Below are positions 5,992 to 63,531 of a stretch of DNA of 64,000 nucleotides, piece after piece. This stretch comes from Candidatus Berkelbacteria bacterium RIFCSPLOWO2_01_FULL_50_28 (lineage in GTDB: Bacteria > Patescibacteriota > UBA1384 > 2-12-FULL-50-11). The number at the start of each line of letters is the position of its first letter. The first letter of the stretch is position 1. A model generated the notes under the pieces. It saw nothing but the letters and a program-made list of their open reading frames with translations, did not search any database and was not told the DNA's origin. A program made the position numbers and the translations under genes. Location: assembly GCA_001774395.1 (NCBI GenBank), contig MEZX01000002.1, positions 481,524 to 545,523 of the forward strand. The letters run 5' to 3'.

Positions 5992-7230
5992 CTACCGTGC
6001 AAAGTGCTGGAAGATCTTCCGCACTTTATCCCAAACCCCCCCTATTTTTCCTACATCAACCCGCCAAGGTGCGTGTGTTTGCTTGTTCTCGTCCACTGCC
6101 CAGAGAACTAGGCCAACGCAGCAAGAGTAAATCGGATTATCGATCTTGTCAAGCAAACCCGAAATTTGAGCCGTTGGATAGCCGATGGTTGCCGGTAAGC
6201 GGAGGCTATCACGAGCCAGTTCGGTTAAGCCCTCAATCTCTGATCCCCCACCTGTAAATATTACTCCAGCGGGTAGTTTCCCCTCTTTTCCCGTCTTGCT
6301 CAGCTCTTCTTTGAGCATCTGGAATATTTCTTCAACGCGAGCTTTGATAATAACGGCCACCTCTTTTCGTGACACTCGTTCGTCCTCGGCTGGGTCGATT
6401 ACGGCCAAATTAATCGTTTCAGAGTCGCGGATTTTATCGGTTAGAACGGTGCCGTATTTCAATTTCAAAGTGTCTGCCACATCTAAATTGGTCCGCAAGC
6501 CGATAGCGATATCGTTGGTGATATGTAACGAGCCGATCGGTAAGCAACCGCAGTAGAGTAGCTCGCCTTCCTCGTAAACGGCGTACGATGTTGTGCCAGC
6601 GCCGATATCAACCACAATAACGCCTGAATCAAGCTGTTTTTTTGTAGTAATGGCTTTGGCGGTGGCCAGCGGCGCGAAAATTAAGCCGTCAATGTTAATG
6701 CCTGCTTGTTCGACGGCTCGAGTTAAATTACGAATTGCCGCGGTGGCGCCGCTAACAACGAGGGCTTGCACTTCAAGACGGATGCCGGTCATACCGGCTG
6801 GATCGCGTATCTCATCTTGGCCGTCAACGATAAAGTGATGAGCAAAAGTGTGAATGAGCTCGCGATTCTGAGGTAGGGCGACGGTTTTGGCCGCATCGAT
6901 AACTCGATCGATGTCGTCTTGTTGGATCTCACCAGAGGCGCGGCCAACAGCGATTACTCCCTGGGCGGGCTGAGAAATTATGTGCGAGCCAGAAATTGAT
7001 AGATAGGCATGAGTAACATTGATGCCCGCCATTCGCTCGGCTTCCTCCAAGGCATGTGATATAGAGCTAACTGTCTCCTCCAGGTCGATTACTATCCCCT
7101 TGCGCATGCCGTGATGGACCACGGAGGCCAGTCCCATTACCGACAGCACACCTTCGTTGATCGTGCCAATTACCACCGCCACCTTGGACGTGCCGATGTC
7201 TATCCCTGTAATAATATTGTCTTGAGTCAT
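5992..7230 (-). CDS. ftsA: Cell division protein FtsA.
   Basis: Actin-like ATPase (MTQDNIITGIDIGTSKVAVVIG...). The start is chosen at the internal Met with an AGGCGGA RBS. The upstream extension of the ORF translates the repeat element. Confidence 0.9.
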   Translation of the reverse strand: MTQDNIITGIDIGTSKVAVVIGTINEGVLSVMGLASVVHHGMRKGIVIDLEETVSSISHALEEAERMAGINVTHAYLSISGSHIISQPAQGVIAVGRASGEIQQDDIDRVIDAAKTVALPQNRELIHTFAHHFIVDGQDEIRDPAGMTGIRLEVQALVVSGATAAIRNLTRAVEQAGINIDGLIFAPLATAKAITTKKQLDSGVIVVDIGAGTTSYAVYEEGELLYCGCLPIGSLHITNDIAIGLRTNLDVADTLKLKYGTVLTDKIRDSETINLAVIDPAEDERVSRKEVAVIIKARVEEIFQMLKEELSKTGKEGKLPAGVIFTGGGSEIEGLTELARDSLRLPATIGYPTAQISGLLDKIDNPIYSCCVGLVLWAVDENKQTHAPWRVDVGKIGGVWDKVRKIFQHFAR

Positions 7231-7248
7231 CAGCAAAATCCGCCTGAT

Positions 7249-7400
7249 TTTGTAATTTCTAATTTCCAATTTCTAATTTTCCCTTCGATAAACTCAGGGC
7301 CCTGAGCGGAGTCGATGGGCATTGAATTTTTAATGACAGAATTTAAAATTAGAGCATTCGGCCTTAACTCAAAATTCAAAATTCTAAATTCAAAATTCCT
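7249..7400. repeat. AT-rich intergenic element A. It has a 4x 7-bp array (TAATTTC/CAATTTC), a central region carrying the perfect palindrome CTCAGGGCCCTGAG, and a second 4x array (AAAATTC).
   Basis: Seen directly in the sequence. The element shares ttgtaattt, a central aatttaaaattaga block and a conserved RBS module with the elements at 31659-31770 and 61069-61178. Confidence 0.7.
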
Positions 7401-7408
7401 TCTGTGTT

Positions 7409-7777
7409 TCATCGGTGGTGATACCCTAATAAGTGAAGTAGCCCGTGTCCGCAGAGCATCTCAATTTCTCTTTCGAGCGGAATTCCCGCTTCTGTAGCTT
7501 GACGCTCGGCCGTATCGGCTGAGACAGCAATTGAACCCAGCAACGGCTCATCGCGGGAAGTGTTGGGGTAGTTTTCAAAACTAAGAACGTCTGTTGGCTG
7601 GTCGATATGGCGAAACTTGGCGTTCAGCTCCTGAATTTGGGCGTCTGTAGTTATCATTACCTCTAAATTCACTCTACCAACCGTATTCAGGCGTAGCAAG
7701 ATTGACGAGAGATGTTTTTTTATATCTTCCTCGTGAAGTCTAACTTTGGTCTGGTTCGACCACGTTAGTTCAAGCAT
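7409..7777 (-). CDS. ybeY: rRNA maturation endoribonuclease YbeY.
   Basis: HGLLHLLGYHH metal-binding motif. The start is MLELTW. Confidence 0.8.
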   Translation of the reverse strand: MLELTWSNQTKVRLHEEDIKKHLSSILLRLNTVGRVNLEVMITTDAQIQELNAKFRHIDQPTDVLSFENYPNTSRDEPLLGSIAVSADTAERQATEAGIPLEREIEMLCGHGLLHLLGYHHR

Positions 7778-23063: not shown

Positions 23064-23264
23064 CTATAAAAGACATATACCAAAGTAATTCAAAAATCAA
23101 AAGTCAAATGCCAAAATGGTATAGTAACAACAGCGACTAACCAAAAAGCCGTGACAACACTAAGCGGTGGTTCATTTCCTGCCGGTAGTCGTAGCGTTGA
23201 ACGCAAAACAACGCGACTCGTCCCTGGGTCCTCGCCAGACGCTCCTCTTGGCGGGGCCCCTCCC

Positions 23265-30416: not shown

Positions 30417-31640
30417 TCACTTCTTGGTCTTTTTTGTTTTGGCGGAGGGTTTTTTCTTGGCGGCAGAGGTTTTTGGCTTGGAGATTTTGGCCTTTGTAAC
30501 TTTCTTGCCGTCGGTTCCGGGCTTCGCGTCGGCAACGGAGTCGTCTTTGGTAGGCGCGGTAACAGTATTGCTATCGGCATCACGCGGGTCTCTTGCCGGT
30601 TTGGATCCGTCGTCCTTGACGATGTCGATCTCCCAACCCGTTAGCTTACTTGCCAAGCGGACGTTTTGACCGTTCTTGCCAATGGCCAGTGATAGCTGAT
30701 CGTCAGGTACTTTAACAGAGGCAACATTTCTTTTCTTCTGAAGGGTAATCTTTTCAATCTTGGCTGGTGAAAGAGCGTTAGCAAGAAGCTGCTCGATAGT
30801 GTCGTTCCAAGAAATAATGTCGATTTTTTCTTCGCCAATCTCGGACAGCACAGCTTGAACACGTGTTCCCCGCTGGCCGACGCACGACCCCACTGGGTCG
30901 AGTCCGGGCATGGTGGATGTTACCGCCATTTTTGTCCGAGTTCCAGCTTCGCGCGAGATAGCCTTGATGGTGACGGTGCCGTTGGCCATCTCTGGAACTT
31001 CAAGATCGAAGAGCTTTTGAATGAAATCGGTGCTGGAGCGAGTTACGAGAACTCGCGGTCCGCGCGGCGTTTCTTCGACTGAGTAGACTAGAACTTTCAG
31101 TCGTTGGCCCGGGAAGTAATTCTGGTTGGGAATTTGGTCGGATGCGATCATCAGGCCGTTTAGTTTACCGATGTTCAAAATAACATTCGGCCCTTCAACC
31201 TGCTGGACATAGCCGTTGATAAGCTGTCCCTGTTTGTCTTTGTATTCGGCGTAAAGGATCTCTTTTTCGGCTTCGCGCAACCGCTGGGATATCACTTGCT
31301 TGGCGGTCTGGGCGGCAATTCGACCGAAGTCGCTGTGCGGCTCTAACTCGATTTTGATCACATCGCCAATCTTGGCGTTCTTCTTGTATTTTTTAGCGTC
31401 CGCGGGAGTCAGCTGGGCTTGAATATTTTCCGGCTCCGCCACGACCTCAAAAGTCTGCCACATCAGGAAACTGCCCGATTCTTCGTCAAGTTTGGCGATG
31501 ATCTGCTCATCGTTTTGTCCGTAATCTTTACGGTAAGCGGCCGCAACGGCGGCTTCGATTGTTTCTAGAATTACTTCCTTAGGAAGCCCTCGTTCATCGG
31601 CTAGTTGATTAATTGCGGCTGCGAATGGGGATATGGCCAT
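30417..31640 (-). CDS. nusA: Transcription termination/antitermination factor NusA with a Lys-rich C-terminal tail.
   Basis: S1/KH architecture. The start is at MAISPF, with a GGAGG RBS. Confidence 0.9.
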   Translation of the reverse strand: MAISPFAAAINQLADERGLPKEVILETIEAAVAAAYRKDYGQNDEQIIAKLDEESGSFLMWQTFEVVAEPENIQAQLTPADAKKYKKNAKIGDVIKIELEPHSDFGRIAAQTAKQVISQRLREAEKEILYAEYKDKQGQLINGYVQQVEGPNVILNIGKLNGLMIASDQIPNQNYFPGQRLKVLVYSVEETPRGPRVLVTRSSTDFIQKLFDLEVPEMANGTVTIKAISREAGTRTKMAVTSTMPGLDPVGSCVGQRGTRVQAVLSEIGEEKIDIISWNDTIEQLLANALSPAKIEKITLQKKRNVASVKVPDDQLSLAIGKNGQNVRLASKLTGWEIDIVKDDGSKPARDPRDADSNTVTAPTKDDSVADAKPGTDGKKVTKAKISKPKTSAAKKKPSAKTKKTKK

Positions 31641-31658
31641 TAGCAAATTCCTCCGGAA

Positions 31659-31770
31659 TTTGTAATTTCCAATTTCCAATTTCCAATTTCCAATAAATTT
31701 TCAATGTCGAAATTTAAAATTAGATAATTCGAGCTTGATTCGAAATTTGAAATTCGATATTTGAAATTGT
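31659..31770. repeat. AT-rich intergenic element B. (AATTTCC)x4, then caataaatttt, then an inverted (GAAATTN)x4 array.
   Basis: Direct read of the sequence. Its translation in the ORF track (NWKLEITNSGGIC) mirrors that of element A. Confidence 0.7.
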
Positions 31771-31860
31771 TGTACATACTTTTATATATTCTCCTTACTT
31801 TTTTAAAAAAGCCAGGATCAAACCTGGTTGTTAATACTTTAACACACATTTTTAGGTAAT

Positions 31861-33673: not shown

Positions 33674-33675
33674 TA

Positions 33676-33800
33676 ATAATCGAATTATCCAATAACCGAA
33701 TAACCAAAAGAATCACTAATCATCTAATAACGAATATTCTACGGCTTTGGTTATTTGGTAATTTTTCGATGATTATGCAATTTGATGATTTGGTAATTAA
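33676..33800. repeat. AT-rich intergenic element E. An AATAACC-type array is followed by an inverted GGTTATT/GGTAATT array.
   Basis: aataatcgaattatccaataaccgaataacc ... ggttatttggtaatttttcgatgattatgcaatttgatgatttggtaatt. Confidence 0.55.
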
Positions 33801-33802
33801 CA

Positions 33803-59499: not shown

Positions 59500-59632
59500 T
59501 GTTTATTTGACCTCCAGGTCTTAACATTATAGCGTGCGGCTTCGTCGCGCGCTACATTGTTGACTCATATCAACAATTATATCCTTTTCACTCTTAATTA
59601 TCAAGGTTTACTCGCCACGTCTGTAAGTGAGG

Positions 59633-60516: not shown

Positions 60517-60526
60517 GTTTAAATAG

Positions 60527-60660
60527 TAATCAATGATTAAGCATCAATAACCAAATCTGATTGTTATTCTGGTATTGGTTATTAGGATATTTTTGATTCT
60601 TTCGCAAAGCGAATTCAGAGCGAAGCGACAGATTGGTGATTGGATATAGGTTATTCATAA
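60527..60660. repeat. AT-rich intergenic element F. AATAACC and GGTATTGGTTATT repeats of the E-type.
   Basis: caataaccaaatctgattgttattctggtattggttattagg. Confidence 0.45.
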
Positions 60661-60662
60661 GA

Positions 60663-61055
60663 TTATGTCTTTTCGGCTGACTTCTTACGTCCCGAACCTA
60701 CTGTTACTCTTTTACCCCGTTTTGTCCGGGCATTGGTTTTTGTTCTTTGACCGCGAGCGGGAAGACGTCGTGTGTGACGTGAGCCGCGATAGCTTCCGAT
60801 TTCCTTCAGGCGACGGACGTTTTGGTTTACCTGTTGACGTAAGTCACCTTCAACCGTAAAATCTTTCTCCACAACCTCACGTAGTTTATCTATCTGCTGG
60901 GGTGTTAGTTCACTGAATTTAGGATTGTGCGTCAGCTGTTGGCTCTTCAGTATCTTGGCTGCTAGAGTTGGGCCAATTCCGTAAACATAGCCAAGCCCGA
61001 TAACAAGTCTTTTATTCTCTGGGATGTTGATTCCGGCAATTCTTGGCATCAGCAA
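60663..61055 (-). CDS. rpsM: 30S ribosomal protein S13.
   Basis: MPRIAGINIPENKR... Confidence 0.9.
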   Translation of the reverse strand: MLMPRIAGINIPENKRLVIGLGYVYGIGPTLAAKILKSQQLTHNPKFSELTPQQIDKLREVVEKDFTVEGDLRQQVNQNVRRLKEIGSYRGSRHTRRLPARGQRTKTNARTKRGKRVTVGSGRKKSAEKT

Positions 61056-61068
61056 TTTCCTCCAGAAA

Positions 61069-61178
61069 TTGTAATTTTCAATTTTAAATTTTCAATTTTC
61101 AATAAATTATTAATGTTTGAATTCAAAACTAAATCATTCAACATTGACTCGAAATTTGAAATTCGAAATTTGAAATTC
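61069..61178. repeat. AT-rich intergenic element C. (AATTTTC)x4, then caataaatt, then an inverted (GAAATTY)x4 array.
   Basis: Direct read of the sequence. It is homologous to element B. Confidence 0.7.
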
Positions 61179-61180
61179 AT

Positions 61181-61294
61181 TTAGCCCTGTCTCTGCTTAT
61201 GGCGAGGATTTGAACAGATTACCCTCAATACCCCCTTGCGGCGGATTATTTTGCATTTCAGGCATCTCGGTTTCACTCCAACGTGTACTTTCAT
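61181..61294 (-). CDS. rpmJ: 50S ribosomal protein L36. It is below the ORF-track size cutoff.
   Basis: Manual translation gives [37 protein letters not shown]. Confidence 0.85.
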
Positions 61295-61297
61295 TAT

Positions 61298-61519
61298 TTA
61301 TGTTAGACGGCGGACGATACGACCTTTGGTCAGGTCATAAAGGCTAAACTCTACCGAAACTCGATCCCCCGGGAGTATTTTGATCCTATGCTTGCGAATC
61401 TTGCCAGAAACGTAACCAAGCACAGCCTGCCCGTTGTCGAGCGTTATGCGAAATTGCGTGTTAGGCAAGGATTCATCCACCAAGCCTTCGAGCGCAATTA
61501 CCCCTTCTTTTTCCGACAT
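61298..61519 (-). CDS. infA: Translation initiation factor IF-1.
   Basis: S1-like OB fold, family resemblance. Confidence 0.9.
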
Positions 61520-62272: not shown

Positions 62273-62849
62273 CTAACAAATGAGCAAGAACCGCATTAAT
62301 TTCAGAGGTAACCGCGTCTCGATCTGGTTCGCCATTGATCTTAATGAGCGAAAAGTTCTCTTTGAAATAAGACAATATTGGTTCAGTGCGTTCGTGATAA
62401 ACCCGCAAACGCTTCTCTACGATTTCTGGACGGTCATCGTCACGAACTGTTTCTTTTCCATCAACAACCGACACCCGTTTGCTCAAACGCAGCTTTGCTG
62501 TTTCATCTGAAATTACAATATTGACGCCTACCACTTTCCAGCCATATTTCTCGGCAAGTTGTTTAAGAATTGGACCCTGCGTGATCGTACGAGGAAATCC
62601 GTCAAAAACAAAGCCTGTGGCGCTACTGTTATCCTCAACAAAGCGCTCAACGATAACAGCTATGTTTTCGTCGGTAAGTAAGTTTCCGGTTTTCAAAAAA
62701 TCTCGTAAATGTTCATCTTTTAGCGCCAGCCCCCGTAATATTTCGCCAGATTCAAAACGGGTAAAACCCAAGCGCTTAGCCAATCGTTCGGCCTGAGTAC
62801 TTTTCCCCGAACCTTGCGCTCCTATTACTACGAAAACCTGTTTACTCAT
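62265..62849 (-). CDS. adk: Adenylate kinase.
   Basis: GAQGSGKSTQ P-loop. Confidence 0.9.
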   Translation of the reverse strand: MSKQVFVVIGAQGSGKSTQAERLAKRLGFTRFESGEILRGLALKDEHLRDFLKTGNLLTDENIAVIVERFVEDNSSATGFVFDGFPRTITQGPILKQLAEKYGWKVVGVNIVISDETAKLRLSKRVSVVDGKETVRDDDRPEIVEKRLRVYHERTEPILSYFKENFSLIKINGEPDRDAVTSEINAVLAHLLDG

Positions 62850-63531
62850 TGTCTCTACTCTCAATATACAGGATCGCCCAAATACCTCTGGCGCCTTTTT
62901 CTTTGGGTTGGATTAAGCCAATATTGGTTTTATGGAGGTCCGACTTTACTTGAATGAGGGCCGTCCCCCGGCTTTGGTCCTGTTCCAGAACCGAAAAATC
63001 ATCGCTCTCAGTTACTCCAAAGTAGGTTAAGGCTTCCTTTTTGACGACTTTAACCGGGTCGAGGTAGACGCTCTCGTCTCCGCTTTGGACCGCGCGGTTC
63101 AGTTCGCTTGCTTTACTGCCGTCAACTCTGAACTCCAAACGAAAGTAGTCAGTCTCATTACTCAGTTTGGGAATCGCCAGGCTCGTTCCTTGCTGGATTG
63201 AATTTTCGTTGCTGATGTTATTGGCTCGTTTAATAAGCCTCCAGTCCATCTTCATCTTATTCCCGATCGTGAATAGCCCTTCCAGCGGTTTTACAACATA
63301 AACGTTGGCGGGATAGCTTAAACGGCCGCGTGGTGTGGCCGGGCGAGTTAGCTTGTCAACAATTTTCCCCTGGTCGCTGGAAGTAACGGCTGGGACATCA
63401 GCCAAAAAAGTACTGTCAGCAGTACTGCGCTTTGTCTCGGTGCTTGTTTGGGAACGATAGTAGTAAGTGGCGGCGGCCAGAAATCCTATCAGGACCACCA
63501 GAGTTGCTAAGAACGCGGGCGGAATTTTCAT
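62842..63531 (-). CDS. Membrane-anchored LysM domain protein inserted between adk and secY.
   Basis: LysM motif VYVVKPLEGLFTIGNKMKMDWRLIKRANNIS...IQQGTSLAIP and an N-terminal TM segment. Confidence 0.6.
   Translation of the reverse strand: MKIPPAFLATLVVLIGFLAAATYYYRSQTSTETKRSTADSTFLADVPAVTSSDQGKIVDKLTRPATPRGRLSYPANVYVVKPLEGLFTIGNKMKMDWRLIKRANNISNENSIQQGTSLAIPKLSNETDYFRLEFRVDGSKASELNRAVQSGDESVYLDPVKVVKKEALTYFGVTESDDFSVLEQDQSRGTALIQVKSDLHKTNIGLIQPKEKGARGIWAILYIESRDNE

What the first reader, a model, noticed from the sequence alone, without database searches (positions are those of the whole stretch)
61069..61178. Copy C of the element, located inside the ribosomal spc/alpha cluster between rpmJ and rpsM
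The architecture matches copy B. A gtaattttcaatttt... array of 4-5 units is followed by caataaatt, then an inverted gaaatttgaaattcgaaatttgaaattc array, and it carries the conserved GGAGG RBS module in front of rpsM. Its position between rpmJ and rpsM is where many bacteria have an internal promoter for the alpha operon.
Basis: seen in the sequence. Interest (0 to 1): 0.5.

Follow-up and report, generated by a model that had tools for sequence, protein, structure and literature searches.

The report
Translated repeat spacer between rpmJ and rpsM
The repeat between the ribosomal genes rpmJ and rpsM is real, but it looks like an inserted, dispersed repeat that carries its own stop-free reading frame and ribosome-binding hairpin, so ribosomes could be passed from one gene to the next, rather than a conserved promoter.

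Summary
Window 61049-61180 (genes on the minus strand) holds two opposed arrays of 7-nt units around a core, followed by a GGAGG module in front of rpsM. Copies A (about 7230-7412) and B (about 31640-31777) have the same plan.

The source is a Candidatus Berkelbacteria (CPR) genome.

The promoter reading is weakly supported. A sigma-70-like TTGAAA-16-TACAAT exists only in copy C. It is missing from copies A and B and from the orthologous elements of two relatives.

Three features are conserved instead:
- A stop-free frame begins at an ATG touching or overlapping the upstream stop codon (TAAATG here) and ends in a stop that overlaps the downstream start codon (cTGATG here). This holds in 15 of 17 copies; the other two overshoot by 8-11 nt.
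- A hairpin holds the Shine-Dalgarno sequence and part of the start codon. Its stem covaries strongly, and a 95%-identical relative has a completely different but still complementary stem.
- The element is present or absent at orthologous gene junctions. Four relatives have rpmJ and rpsM only 2-10 nt apart.

The best reading is an insertion-type intercistronic repeat that preserves translational coupling. It works like mycobacterial MIRUs, but its ends are foldback arrays of heptads. Transcription, translation and mobility are all inferred, not measured.

The parts
61181..61294 (-). rpmJ (ribosomal protein L36, 37 aa). Its TAA stop (61183-61181) is immediately followed by the ATG of the spacer frame.
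   Evidence: ORF and translation; sequence. It is not called in the public gene calls.
61049..61180 (-). Copy C as a whole. It is a 43-codon stop-free frame (MNFKFRISNFESMLNDLVLNSNINNLLKIENLKLKITISGGNC*) from the ATG at 61180 to the TGA at 61051-61049. That TGA overlaps the rpsM ATG (61049-61047).
   Evidence: This frame has 0 stops, against 7 and 4 in the other two sense frames.
61149..61178 (-). Distal (5' on the mRNA) array of 7-nt units: GAATTTC/AAATTTC x4.
   Evidence: TRF; inverted-repeat arms.
61104..61148 (-). Central core with a small internal palindrome (AATGTTGAAT...ATTCAAACATT). It is homologous to the core TAATTTTAAATYYNGTCATTRAAAATTYATT shared by other copies.
   Evidence: Sequence; alignment A3.
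61067..61103 (-). Proximal array of 7-nt units: TTGAAAA x4, with the third unit TTTAAAA. This G-to-T change removes what would be an in-frame TGA.
   Evidence: TRF; sequence; frame analysis.
61048..61075 (-). Hairpin AUUA-CAAUUUCU-GGA-GGAAAUUG-C-UGAU, about -6.9 kcal/mol. It holds the Shine-Dalgarno GGAGG (61063-61059) and the first two bases of the rpsM AUG.
   Evidence: Folds; covariation over 18 copies.
61068..61095 (-). Sigma-70-like hexamer pair TTGAAA-16-TACAAT. It is specific to this copy.
   Evidence: No equivalent site in copies A or B, nor in L024 or L026.
60663..61049 (-). rpsM (ribosomal protein S13, 128 aa), the downstream gene served by the module.
7230..7412 (-). Copy A, between ybeY and ftsA. 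A 60-codon frame starts in an ATGA overlap with the ybeY stop and ends in a TGATG overlap with the ftsA start.
   Evidence: It is annotated as a hypothetical protein in NCBI (P0005).
31640..31777 (-). Copy B, upstream of nusA. A 45-codon frame ends in a TAATG overlap with the nusA start. The same frame stays open upstream to an ATG at 31849, 14 nt after the stop of the WecG-family glycosyltransferase gene.
60517..60662 (-). A second family of inverted-array element (AATAACC/GGTTATT units) in the next gap, rpsM-rpsK. It is absent from close relatives.

Best explanation
Copy C belongs to a dispersed family of roughly 60-190-nt intercistronic repeat elements, found so far only in Candidatus Berkelbacteria-like CPR genomes. 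The elements sit exactly at stop-start junctions of co-directional genes.

The proposed mechanism is as follows. The element is transcribed as part of the rpmJ-rpsM mRNA. A ribosome finishing rpmJ at UAA re-initiates on the adjacent AUG. It translates a 43-codon frame with no stop codons through both heptad arrays. In doing so it melts a hairpin that holds the rpsM Shine-Dalgarno sequence and part of the AUG. It then terminates at a UGA that overlaps the rpsM AUG (UGAUG) and re-initiates on rpsM. The element thus acts as a 'ribosome relay'. It keeps rpsM translationally coupled to the upstream cistron despite about 130 nt of inserted DNA.

The peptide itself is probably meaningless. The element itself probably arrived by insertion.

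Shown: the architecture, the frame, the junction overlaps, the covarying hairpin, and presence/absence at orthologous junctions.
Inferred: co-transcription, translation of the frame, coupling, and the insertion mechanism.
For: (1) The open frame.
- In 8 of 10 same-strand gaps carrying such elements, one sense frame has 0 stops over the whole gap, while the other frames have 1-7. Dinucleotide shuffles give an open frame with P = 0.06-0.47 per element.
- In all 17 copies examined, the longest open frame runs through the element as far as the copy extends. It ends with its stop overlapping the gene's ATG (URAUG or AUGA) in 15 of them. In the other two it ends 8-11 nt beyond the ATG.
- The frame's ATG overlaps the upstream stop (ATGA) in 9 of the 13 copies where that stop could be placed. 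In copy C and the L012 rpsC>rplP copy it abuts it (TAAATG, TAGATG), and in L026 it lies 1 nt after it. In L012 rplB>rpsS, L010_2 and copy B it lies 2, 7 and 11 nt further downstream.
- Gene callers independently called such ORFs with exact overlaps: L018 1860-2012, L022 10001-10147 and L023 10001-10141.
- Three control gaps without elements (rpsD-rpoA, 49.9 kb, 23 kb) have stops in all frames.

(2) The peptide is not conserved. The orthologous ORFs in L021 and L022 differ at 12 nt, spread 3/5/4 over the codon positions. That gives 9 non-synonymous and 2 synonymous codon changes, which matches the neutral expectation.

(3) The Shine-Dalgarno hairpin.
- Over 18 copies, 80.6% of cells are paired against 62.2% in shuffles. 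The covariation score is 0.488 against 0.199, reached by 0 of 500 shuffles. All slid registers score lower.
- The orthologous copy in a relative with 95%-identical S13 has UUUUGCC/GGCAAAA in place of CAAUUUC/GAAAUUG, and keeps the UGAUG.
- The hairpin is not a general property of genes in this genome.
- Chance matches to the same pattern elsewhere mostly lack complementary variable positions: none of the six distinct matches in viral contigs has them, though two of the three chance matches in metagenome contigs do.

(4) Gain and loss.
- rpmJ-rpsM is filled in the source, L024/25 and L026. It is empty (2-10 nt) in L027, L115, L116 and L117.
- Relative L012 carries elements at seven successive junctions of the S10 operon. 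In the source and in L027 these genes overlap or abut, except rplW-rplB, which is also filled in the source and was not sampled in L027.

(5) A published precedent for the same logic exists. MIRUs insert at start codons with a coupled ORF (PMC12548453, citing Supply et al. 1997).
Against: - There are no transcript, ribosome-profiling or proteomic data. Every functional step is inferred.
- Copy C does contain a good sigma-70-like site.
- Not all family members keep a complete frame. Window 60517-60662 and 33674-33802 each have 1 stop in their best frame. The L023 dprA>topA and topA>recR copies are closed in all frames.
- One antisense frame of copy C is also stop-free.
- The coupling model does not explain why the arms are inverted arrays of 7-nt units.
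- The hairpins are only moderately stable, -6 to -9 kcal/mol, and the L026 hairpin is weak.
- No transposase was found and no target-site duplication is unambiguous. Mobility rests only on filled versus empty sites.
- The copies are related by descent, so the per-copy statistics are not independent.
Confidence: 0.6

Rival explanations
1. Internal promoter. The proximal heptads supply a -35 (TTGAAA) and a -10 (TACAAT) box. The A/T-rich arrays act like UP elements. rpsM and the alpha-operon genes would be transcribed from within the element.
For: A 10-of-12 sigma-70-like match with a 16-nt spacer lies at 61095-61068(-). This organism does use canonical promoters, for example TTGATA-17-TATAAT upstream of rpoA. 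Some bacterial MITEs such as Correia carry working promoters (PMC10969869). Copies A, B and C sit in front of ftsA, nusA and rpsM, which are often operon heads.
Against: No site on the gene strand passes the same scan in copies A or B, whose -10-like box is TACAAA. The orthologous elements in L024/25 and L026, and other family members (L023 nusG>rplK, L010_1, L010_3), have no TAnnnT box there. The predicted start would fall inside GGAGG. That would leave the covarying 5' half of the hairpin and the whole open frame without a role. Relatives carry elements at seven successive junctions inside the S10 operon, where promoters are not expected. Four relatives have only a 2-10-nt rpmJ-rpsM gap.
Confidence: 0.15
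2. RNA foldback signal. The two arms would pair in the polycistronic mRNA to form a long A-U-rich hairpin. This would serve as an RNase III or RNase E processing site, or as a 3'-end stabiliser, as reported for Correia/nemis, ERIC and REP elements.
For: The arms are 78-82% complementary. RNAalifold predicts arm-to-arm pairing in four 5-6-bp blocks. Copy B folds better than shuffles, z = -3.2. RNase III genes are present in relatives. Precedents are reviewed in PMC10969869.
Against: The fold of copy C is not better than shuffles (z = -1.2), and its minimum-energy fold does not pair the arms. The consensus helix is weak, -10 kcal/mol, with a mismatch in every heptad. The AAUUU cores are invariant, so covariation cannot be assessed. 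'Half' elements lack a distal arm (L010_2, L012 rpsS>rplV, L013), and chimeric copies have arms of different unit types (L010_1, L023 nusG>rplK), yet all keep the frame and the SD hairpin. A translated frame would keep the helix melted.
Confidence: 0.1
3. DNA-level binding arrays. The heptads would be iterated binding sites for a protein (a transposase at foldback-type ends, a regulator, or a nucleoid protein). The open frame would then be a side effect.
For: The layout of direct arrays within an arm, inverted between arms, is typical of transposon ends. Filled and empty sites exist. A Y1 transposase gene lies 8 kb from elements in L023.
Against: At least six unrelated unit sequences share the same plan. 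That would need many cognate proteins. Binding arrays do not predict stop-codon avoidance in exactly the frame joined to both neighbours. They also do not predict a covarying RNA stem. No associated protein was identified in the window.
Confidence: 0.08
4. Regulatory hairpin. The GGA-in-loop hairpin over the Shine-Dalgarno sequence would be a binding site for a CsrA-like translational repressor, or an RNA thermometer.
For: The conserved hairpin presents GGA in its loop and overlaps the Shine-Dalgarno sequence and the AUG. L013 and L012 rpsS>rplV carry a second upstream GGAG mini-hairpin. That this resembles CsrA sites is from my own knowledge, not a tool result.
Against: Whether these genomes encode CsrA was not tested. 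The targets are a mixed set of housekeeping genes. The hairpin always travels with the repeat, not with a functional class of genes.
Confidence: 0.05
5. A genuine small-protein gene family (43-65 aa) encoded between housekeeping genes.
For: The ORFs are intact. 13 clusters of similar peptides exist in public protein sets, one annotated as a hypothetical protein.
Against: Substitutions between orthologues look neutral: 9 non-synonymous to 2 synonymous codon changes. The C-terminal residues change with the covarying RNA stem. The peptides are low-complexity translations of 7-nt repeats. No Pfam domain is recorded for any of them.
Confidence: 0.03

Closest known systems
MIRU (mycobacterial interspersed repetitive units)
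   Same: Both are short repeats located between genes of operons, in the same orientation as the genes. Both carry a small ORF whose ends are coupled to the stop and start codons of the neighbouring genes, so that the insertion has minimal effect on expression of the downstream gene (PMC12548453, citing Supply et al. 1997).
   Different: There is no sequence relationship, and the phylum is different (CPR/Berkelbacteria). MIRUs are direct tandem units of tens of bp. Here the element is a single unit made of two opposed arrays of 7-nt repeats around a core, plus a covarying hairpin that holds the downstream Shine-Dalgarno sequence.
Bacterial MITEs (Correia/nemis, ERIC, BOX, RUP) and foldback-type transposons
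   Same: Small size, no transposase gene, inverted ends, many dispersed copies, presence/absence between relatives, and location just upstream of genes. Some MITEs carry promoters or RNase III sites (PMC10969869). Ends built from tandem short repeats recall eukaryotic Foldback elements (from my own knowledge).
   Different: The ends are imperfect (78-82% complementary) and made of heptad arrays. No unambiguous target-site duplication or partner transposase was found. The strict position at stop-start junctions, with an open frame that relays translation, is not a described property of Correia, ERIC or BOX.
RPE (Rickettsia palindromic elements)
   Same: Both are palindromic repeats of about 100-150 bp that are compatible with translation and carry an open frame (PMC10969869).
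   Different: RPEs insert in frame inside protein-coding genes and become part of the protein. These elements lie between genes as a separate coupled mini-cistron. Only one case seen here, a prepilin leader in L023, is fused into a gene.
Alpha operon ribosome binding site (Rfam RF00140, S4 operator at rpsM)
   Same: Same genomic position (5' of rpsM), and both involve RNA structure around the rpsM ribosome-binding site.
   Different: The match scores only 19 bits against a gathering score of 38. The alignment rests on the conserved first codons of rpsM. The same module also precedes ftsA, nusA, rplK, rplP and other genes, so it is not an S4-specific operator.

Membership tests
MIRU | Located in intercistronic gaps of co-directional genes, with its ORF in the same direction as the genes | tested here: met
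   All 17 copies examined lie upstream of a same-strand gene.
MIRU | Small ORF whose start and stop overlap or abut the flanking stop and start codons | tested here: met
   15 of 17 copies end in URAUG or AUGA. 9 begin in ATGA and 2 in TAAATG or TAGATG.
MIRU | Sequence homology to the mycobacterial MIRU units, and organisation as direct tandem units of tens of bp | tested here: not met
   The architecture is two opposed arrays of 7-nt units. The peptide profile finds only Berkelbacteria/Patescibacteria entries. No direct comparison with MIRU sequences was run.
MITE | Small, non-coding for a transposase, many dispersed related copies | tested here: met
   Copies are 60-190 nt. Three copies of this family plus two of a second family lie in the 64-kb window, with a third copy of the second family in the adjoining L018 stretch. 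A shared core sequence is visible in alignment A3.
MITE | Terminal inverted repeats | tested here: inconclusive
   The arms are 78-82% complementary over 20-34 nt but are internally repetitive. Some copies have only one arm, or arms of different unit types.
MITE | Target-site duplication | tested here: inconclusive
   Filled sites read stop-ATG[element]ATG-gene, or TAA[element]TAA at rpsM-rpsK. ATG and TAA are also functionally required there, so duplication cannot be told apart from selection.
MITE | Presence/absence polymorphism at orthologous sites | tested here: met
   rpmJ-rpsM, rpsM-rpsK and four S10-operon junctions are filled in some relatives and empty in others.
MITE | Cognate autonomous element or transposase | not tested
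   Only a Y1_Tnp gene was noted, 8 kb from elements in L023. No whole genome was available to search.
Sigma-70 promoter | -35 and -10 hexamers with a 16-18-nt spacer on the gene strand | tested here: met
   Met for copy C only: TTGAAA-16-TACAAT.
Sigma-70 promoter | Conservation of the hexamers across copies and orthologues | tested here: not met
Sigma-70 promoter | Mapped transcription start site | not testable with these tools
   No transcript data were accessible.
Rfam RF00140 Alpha_RBS | Score at or above the gathering threshold (38 bits) | tested here: not met
   19 bits. The alignment is driven by the rpsM coding start. No Rfam family reaches its gathering score in the element.
RPE | In-frame insertion inside a protein-coding gene | tested here: not met
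   Copy C and the other copies lie between genes as separate frames. The one exception is the L023 prepilin leader.

The most novel reading that the evidence does not exclude
Berkelbacteria (CPR) may harbour a previously undescribed class of foldback-type mobile elements whose ends are arrays of 7-nt repeats. These elements would specifically colonise stop-start junctions of operons, including the otherwise near-invariant S10, spc and alpha ribosomal-protein operons. They would be tolerated there because each carries a complete 'ribosome relay': a start codon at the upstream stop, a stop-free frame, a masked Shine-Dalgarno sequence, and a stop overlapping the downstream start. In some lineages nearly every junction of the S10 operon is occupied.
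Probability: 0.4. Interest if true: 0.75.

Novelty: new variant of a known kind. Interest (0 to 1): 0.6.

Why it matters
Ribosomal-protein operons are among the most tightly packed and conserved gene arrays in bacteria. In these tiny CPR genomes they are interrupted by 60-190-nt repeats at gene junctions, seven in a row in one relative. Each repeat is built so that translation could flow through it.

If the relay model is right, three things follow:
- Selfish or repeat DNA can invade essential operons without breaking translational coupling.
- Mycobacterial MIRUs gain a second, independent example of that strategy.
- A natural, compact 'bicistronic design' cassette becomes available for study.

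There are also practical consequences. These repeats break metagenome assemblies, as the Logan contigs that end inside them show. They also generate spurious 'hypothetical protein' calls and false N-terminal extensions in annotations.

Tried and rejected
- A genome-contig scan for the RBS module gave only two chance hits. The source species is evidently not among the representative genomes.
- The viral-contig scans were uninformative. The module pattern gave 8 stretches (6 distinct sequences), all chance hits without heptads. The heptad pattern is non-specific in A/T-rich giant-virus contigs.
- Rfam has no family at gathering score in the element. The sub-threshold Alpha_RBS hit is explained by the rpsM coding start.
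- The idea that a hairpin over the Shine-Dalgarno sequence is a general feature of translation starts in this genome was rejected. Only the element copies have 8-bp stems.
- The idea that the frame encodes a conserved peptide was rejected, because substitutions look neutral.
- A long, stable arm-to-arm RNA hairpin is not supported for copy C.
- Literature searches for Berkelbacteria or Patescibacteria together with repeats, MITEs or promoters found no description of these elements.
- Strain-level variation in heptad number (phase variation) was considered. Copy C is identical in the three assemblies that span it whole, and two further contigs that begin inside it match over the part they hold.

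Full report
**1. What is there**

All genes in this part of the window are on the minus strand: infA (61298-61519), rpmJ (61181-61294, L36), then rpsM (60663-61049, S13), rpsK, rpsD and rpoA. The 131 nt between the rpmJ stop and the rpsM ATG are 21% G+C, against about 47% around them.

Read on the mRNA strand, the gap is:
- TAA, then ATG, then four 7-nt units (GAATTTC/AAATTTC);
- a 45-nt core with a small palindrome;
- four or five 7-nt units in the opposite sense (TTGAAAA);
- ATTACAATTTCTGGAGGAAATTGCTGATG, where the final ATG is the rpsM start.

Tandem Repeats Finder reports 4.4 and 3.9 copies of period 7. The arms are 78-80% complementary. The unit as a whole is 61049-61180, slightly wider than the coordinates given.

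**2. It is a repeat family, not chance**

The heptad motif clusters at three places only: 12 matches against 1.1 expected, with 0 of 100 shuffles reaching this. The 3' module TTACAANNTCNGGNGGANNTTGCT occurs exactly three times against 0.07 expected. Each occurrence is followed by a start codon:
- copy A lies between ybeY and ftsA;
- copy B lies in front of nusA;
- copy C lies in front of rpsM.

The three copies also share a central core, TAATTTTAAATYYNGTCATTRAAAATTYATT (alignment A3). This shows common descent rather than independent slippage.

**3. Source and distribution**

The S13 and RpoA proteins are those of Candidatus Berkelbacteria bacterium RIFCSPLOWO2_01_FULL_50_28, whose longest contig is 629 kb. 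Copy C is identical in independent assemblies. Two Logan contigs end inside it.

A metagenome scan for the module found relatives with the same plan in front of rplP, an rplT-like gene and other genes. A profile of the translated frames found only 13 protein clusters among 5.8 billion. All are unnamed or 'hypothetical', from Berkelbacteria or Patescibacteria. Scans of representative genomes and of viral contigs gave only chance hits. No paper in the library describes these elements.

**4. The unexpected conserved feature: a bridging reading frame**

In copy C an ATG directly follows the rpmJ TAA. It opens a 43-codon frame that ends with a TGA overlapping the rpsM ATG (cTGATG). The other two sense frames contain 7 and 4 stops. 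The third proximal unit is TTTAAAA rather than TTGAAAA. This is exactly the unit where a G would create an in-frame TGA.

The same holds across the family.
- 8 of 10 element-bearing gaps have one completely open sense frame. Shuffles give P = 0.06-0.47 each.
- Among 17 copies, 15 have the stop of that frame overlapping the gene's ATG (URAUG or AUGA). Two overshoot by 8-11 nt.
- The frame's ATG overlaps the upstream stop (ATGA) in 9 copies. In copy C and the L012 rpsC>rplP copy it abuts it (TAAATG, TAGATG), and in L026 it lies 1 nt after it. In three further copies it lies 2, 7 and 11 nt downstream.
- Gene callers independently produced such ORFs with exact overlaps: rplW>ORF>rplB in the source genome, FtsA>ORF>next gene, and NusG>ORF>rplK.
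- Gaps without elements have stops in all frames.

The peptide is not what is conserved. The orthologous frames in L021 and L022 differ at 12 nt spread evenly over codon positions, with 9 non-synonymous and 2 synonymous changes. This is the neutral expectation.

**5. The second conserved feature: a hairpin over the ribosome-binding site**

AUUA-CAAUUUCU-GGA-GGAAAUUG-C-UGAU folds at -6.9 kcal/mol and is predicted in all three window copies.

Over 18 copies anchored on the GGA:
- 80.6% of cells pair, against 62.2% in shuffles;
- the covariation score is 0.488 against 0.199, reached by 0 of 500 shuffles;
- all slid registers score lower.

The stems differ completely between families (CAAWWUC/GAWWUUG, CAAACC/GGUUUG, CGCC/GGCG, UUUUGCC/GGCAAAA). 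The clearest case is the orthologous site in L024/L025, whose S13 is 95% identical. There the heptads are followed by TTTTGCCTGGAGGGCAAAAGTGATG, a new stem that is still complementary, and TGATG is retained.

Such stems are not a general property of starts in this genome. Chance matches to the pattern mostly lack complementary variable positions: none of the six distinct viral-contig matches has them, although two of the three chance matches in metagenome contigs do. Covariation of the 5' half of the stem implies that this half is transcribed, so transcripts must start upstream of it.

**6. Promoter test**

Copy C has TTGAAA-16-TACAAT. This organism does use canonical promoters, for example TTGATA-17-TATAAT before rpoA. 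Against a promoter function:
- copies A and B have no site on the gene strand that passes the scan;
- the orthologous L024 and L026 elements, and several other family members, lack a -10 box;
- the predicted start would fall inside GGAGG.

The promoter is therefore a copy-specific possibility, not the function of the family.

**7. Gain and loss**

At rpmJ-rpsM, an element is present in the source, in L024/25 and in L026. The L026 copy is a full bridging frame, from an ATG 1 nt after the rpmJ TAA (TAAAATG) to a TAATG at the rpsM start. It is absent in L027, L115, L116 and L117, whose S13 is 70-75% identical. Their gap is 2-10 nt, and none has a heptad array in 20 kb. The extended S13 calls P0027, P0061 and P0089 likewise imply that rpmJ abuts rpsM.

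The neighbouring rpsM-rpsK gap holds a second-family element in the window. In L024 and L026 the same gap reads simply cataaACatg.

Relative L012, whose L16 is 76% identical, has elements at rplW-rplB, rplB-rpsS, rpsS-rplV, rplV-rpsC, rpsC-rplP and rplN-rplX. In the source and in L027 these genes overlap or abut, apart from rplW-rplB, which also carries a second-family element in the source. The elements therefore behave as insertions at stop-start junctions.

**8. Mechanism proposed**

The element is co-transcribed with its neighbours. Ribosomes terminating on rpmJ re-initiate on the abutting AUG and translate through the arrays. They unwind the hairpin over the Shine-Dalgarno sequence and AUG, terminate at UGAUG, and re-initiate on rpsM. 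Without upstream translation the hairpin would damp independent initiation. The element is thus 'translationally transparent', which would explain why it can persist inside essential operons.

The steps that are shown and those that are inferred are listed under the best explanation.

Not explained:
- why the arms are opposed arrays of 7-nt units;
- why at least six unrelated unit sequences share the plan;
- how insertion occurs, since no transposase and no unambiguous target duplication were found.

**9. Comparison with known systems**

Functionally the closest system is the mycobacterial MIRU, described as inserting at start codons with a coupled ORF (PMC12548453). Structurally the elements resemble MITEs or foldback elements. 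RPEs are the precedent for translated palindromic repeats (PMC10969869).

These elements are not members of any of those families. They share no sequence relationship with them and have a different architecture. No Rfam family matches: Alpha_RBS scores 19 bits against a threshold of 38, and the match is due to the rpsM coding start.

**10. Verdict**

The promoter interpretation is not supported as the main function, although it is not excluded for this one copy.

The best explanation, at confidence about 0.6, is an inserted intercistronic repeat that relays translation from rpmJ to rpsM. It is a new variant of a known kind (MIRU-like logic, foldback or MITE-like form) in a phylum where nothing of the sort has been described.

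Noticed in passing
window 60517-60662 (-): A second family of inverted-array element (AATAACC/GGTTATT units) fills the rpsM-rpsK gap. A 42-codon frame starts 4 nt after the rpsM stop but ends 17 nt before the rpsK ATG, and rpsK has no obvious Shine-Dalgarno sequence. The element is absent from L024 (S13 95% identical) and from L026, where the gap is just 'AC'.
   Followed up: partly
window 33674-33802 (-); L018 1860-2012: Further copies of the AATAACC-type family. One lies between mreB and a GT4 glycosyltransferase; its frame starts in a TAATG overlap but stops 55 nt early. One lies between rplW and rplB in the source genome. That copy is a full 50-codon bridging frame with a CGCC-GGA-GGCG hairpin, and it is called as a gene with no Pfam hit.
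   Followed up: partly
window 59500-59632 (-): The rpsD-rpoA gap has a canonical TTGATA-17-TATAAT promoter-like site, a second TATAAT, and a short GACC-UGGA-GGUC hairpin over the rpoA Shine-Dalgarno sequence. It has stops in all frames and is not the repeat element.
   Followed up: partly
window 31812-31827 (-) and 31640-31849 (-): A terminator-like hairpin (CCAGGTTTGATCCTGG followed by a T-run) lies between the WecG-family gene and copy B. The bridging frame is nevertheless open through it, from an ATG 14 nt after the upstream stop down to nusA. It is unclear whether the hairpin terminates transcription.
   Followed up: partly
window 61181-61294; L018 6407-6586: rpmJ (L36) and the zinc-type S14 gene are present but missing from the public gene calls for these contigs.
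   Followed up: yes
window 62842-63531 (-): A 229-aa ORF with a LysM domain sits between secY and adk inside the spc-operon region. It is conserved at that position in relatives L027, L115, L116 and L117.
   Followed up: no
L012 2850-7200: A related Berkelbacteria contig has repeat elements of several unit types at seven successive junctions of the S10 operon: rplW-rplB, rplB-rpsS, rpsS-rplV, rplV-rpsC, rpsC-rplP and rplN-rplX. Each has an open bridging frame.
   Followed up: yes
L023 3607-3740: A prepilin (N_methyl) gene starts inside an element of the AATTACN/CAGTAAT type. The proximal arm is translated as part of the leader (MTKNPKFSNSVIQKFSNSQSAFTLIEL), giving an in-frame fusion of the kind seen with RPEs.
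   Followed up: partly
L023 2131-2715: A Y1 (IS200/IS605-type, PF01797) transposase gene lies about 8 kb from several elements. It is a possible mobiliser, but no link was tested.
   Followed up: no
window 23085-23110 (-): Three TTTTGAN units form a partial array of yet another unit type in a 470-nt gap between two minus-strand genes. No bridging frame is present.
   Followed up: no
L010 3452-3461, L012 5730-5739, L013 7684-7693: 'Half' elements in relatives lack the distal arm. They begin with a conserved TAATAACCCGACCATG, whose ATG opens a 19-codon frame (MKLKIENLKLKITNSGGIC*) ending in TGATG. The role of the CCCGACC motif is unknown.
   Followed up: partly
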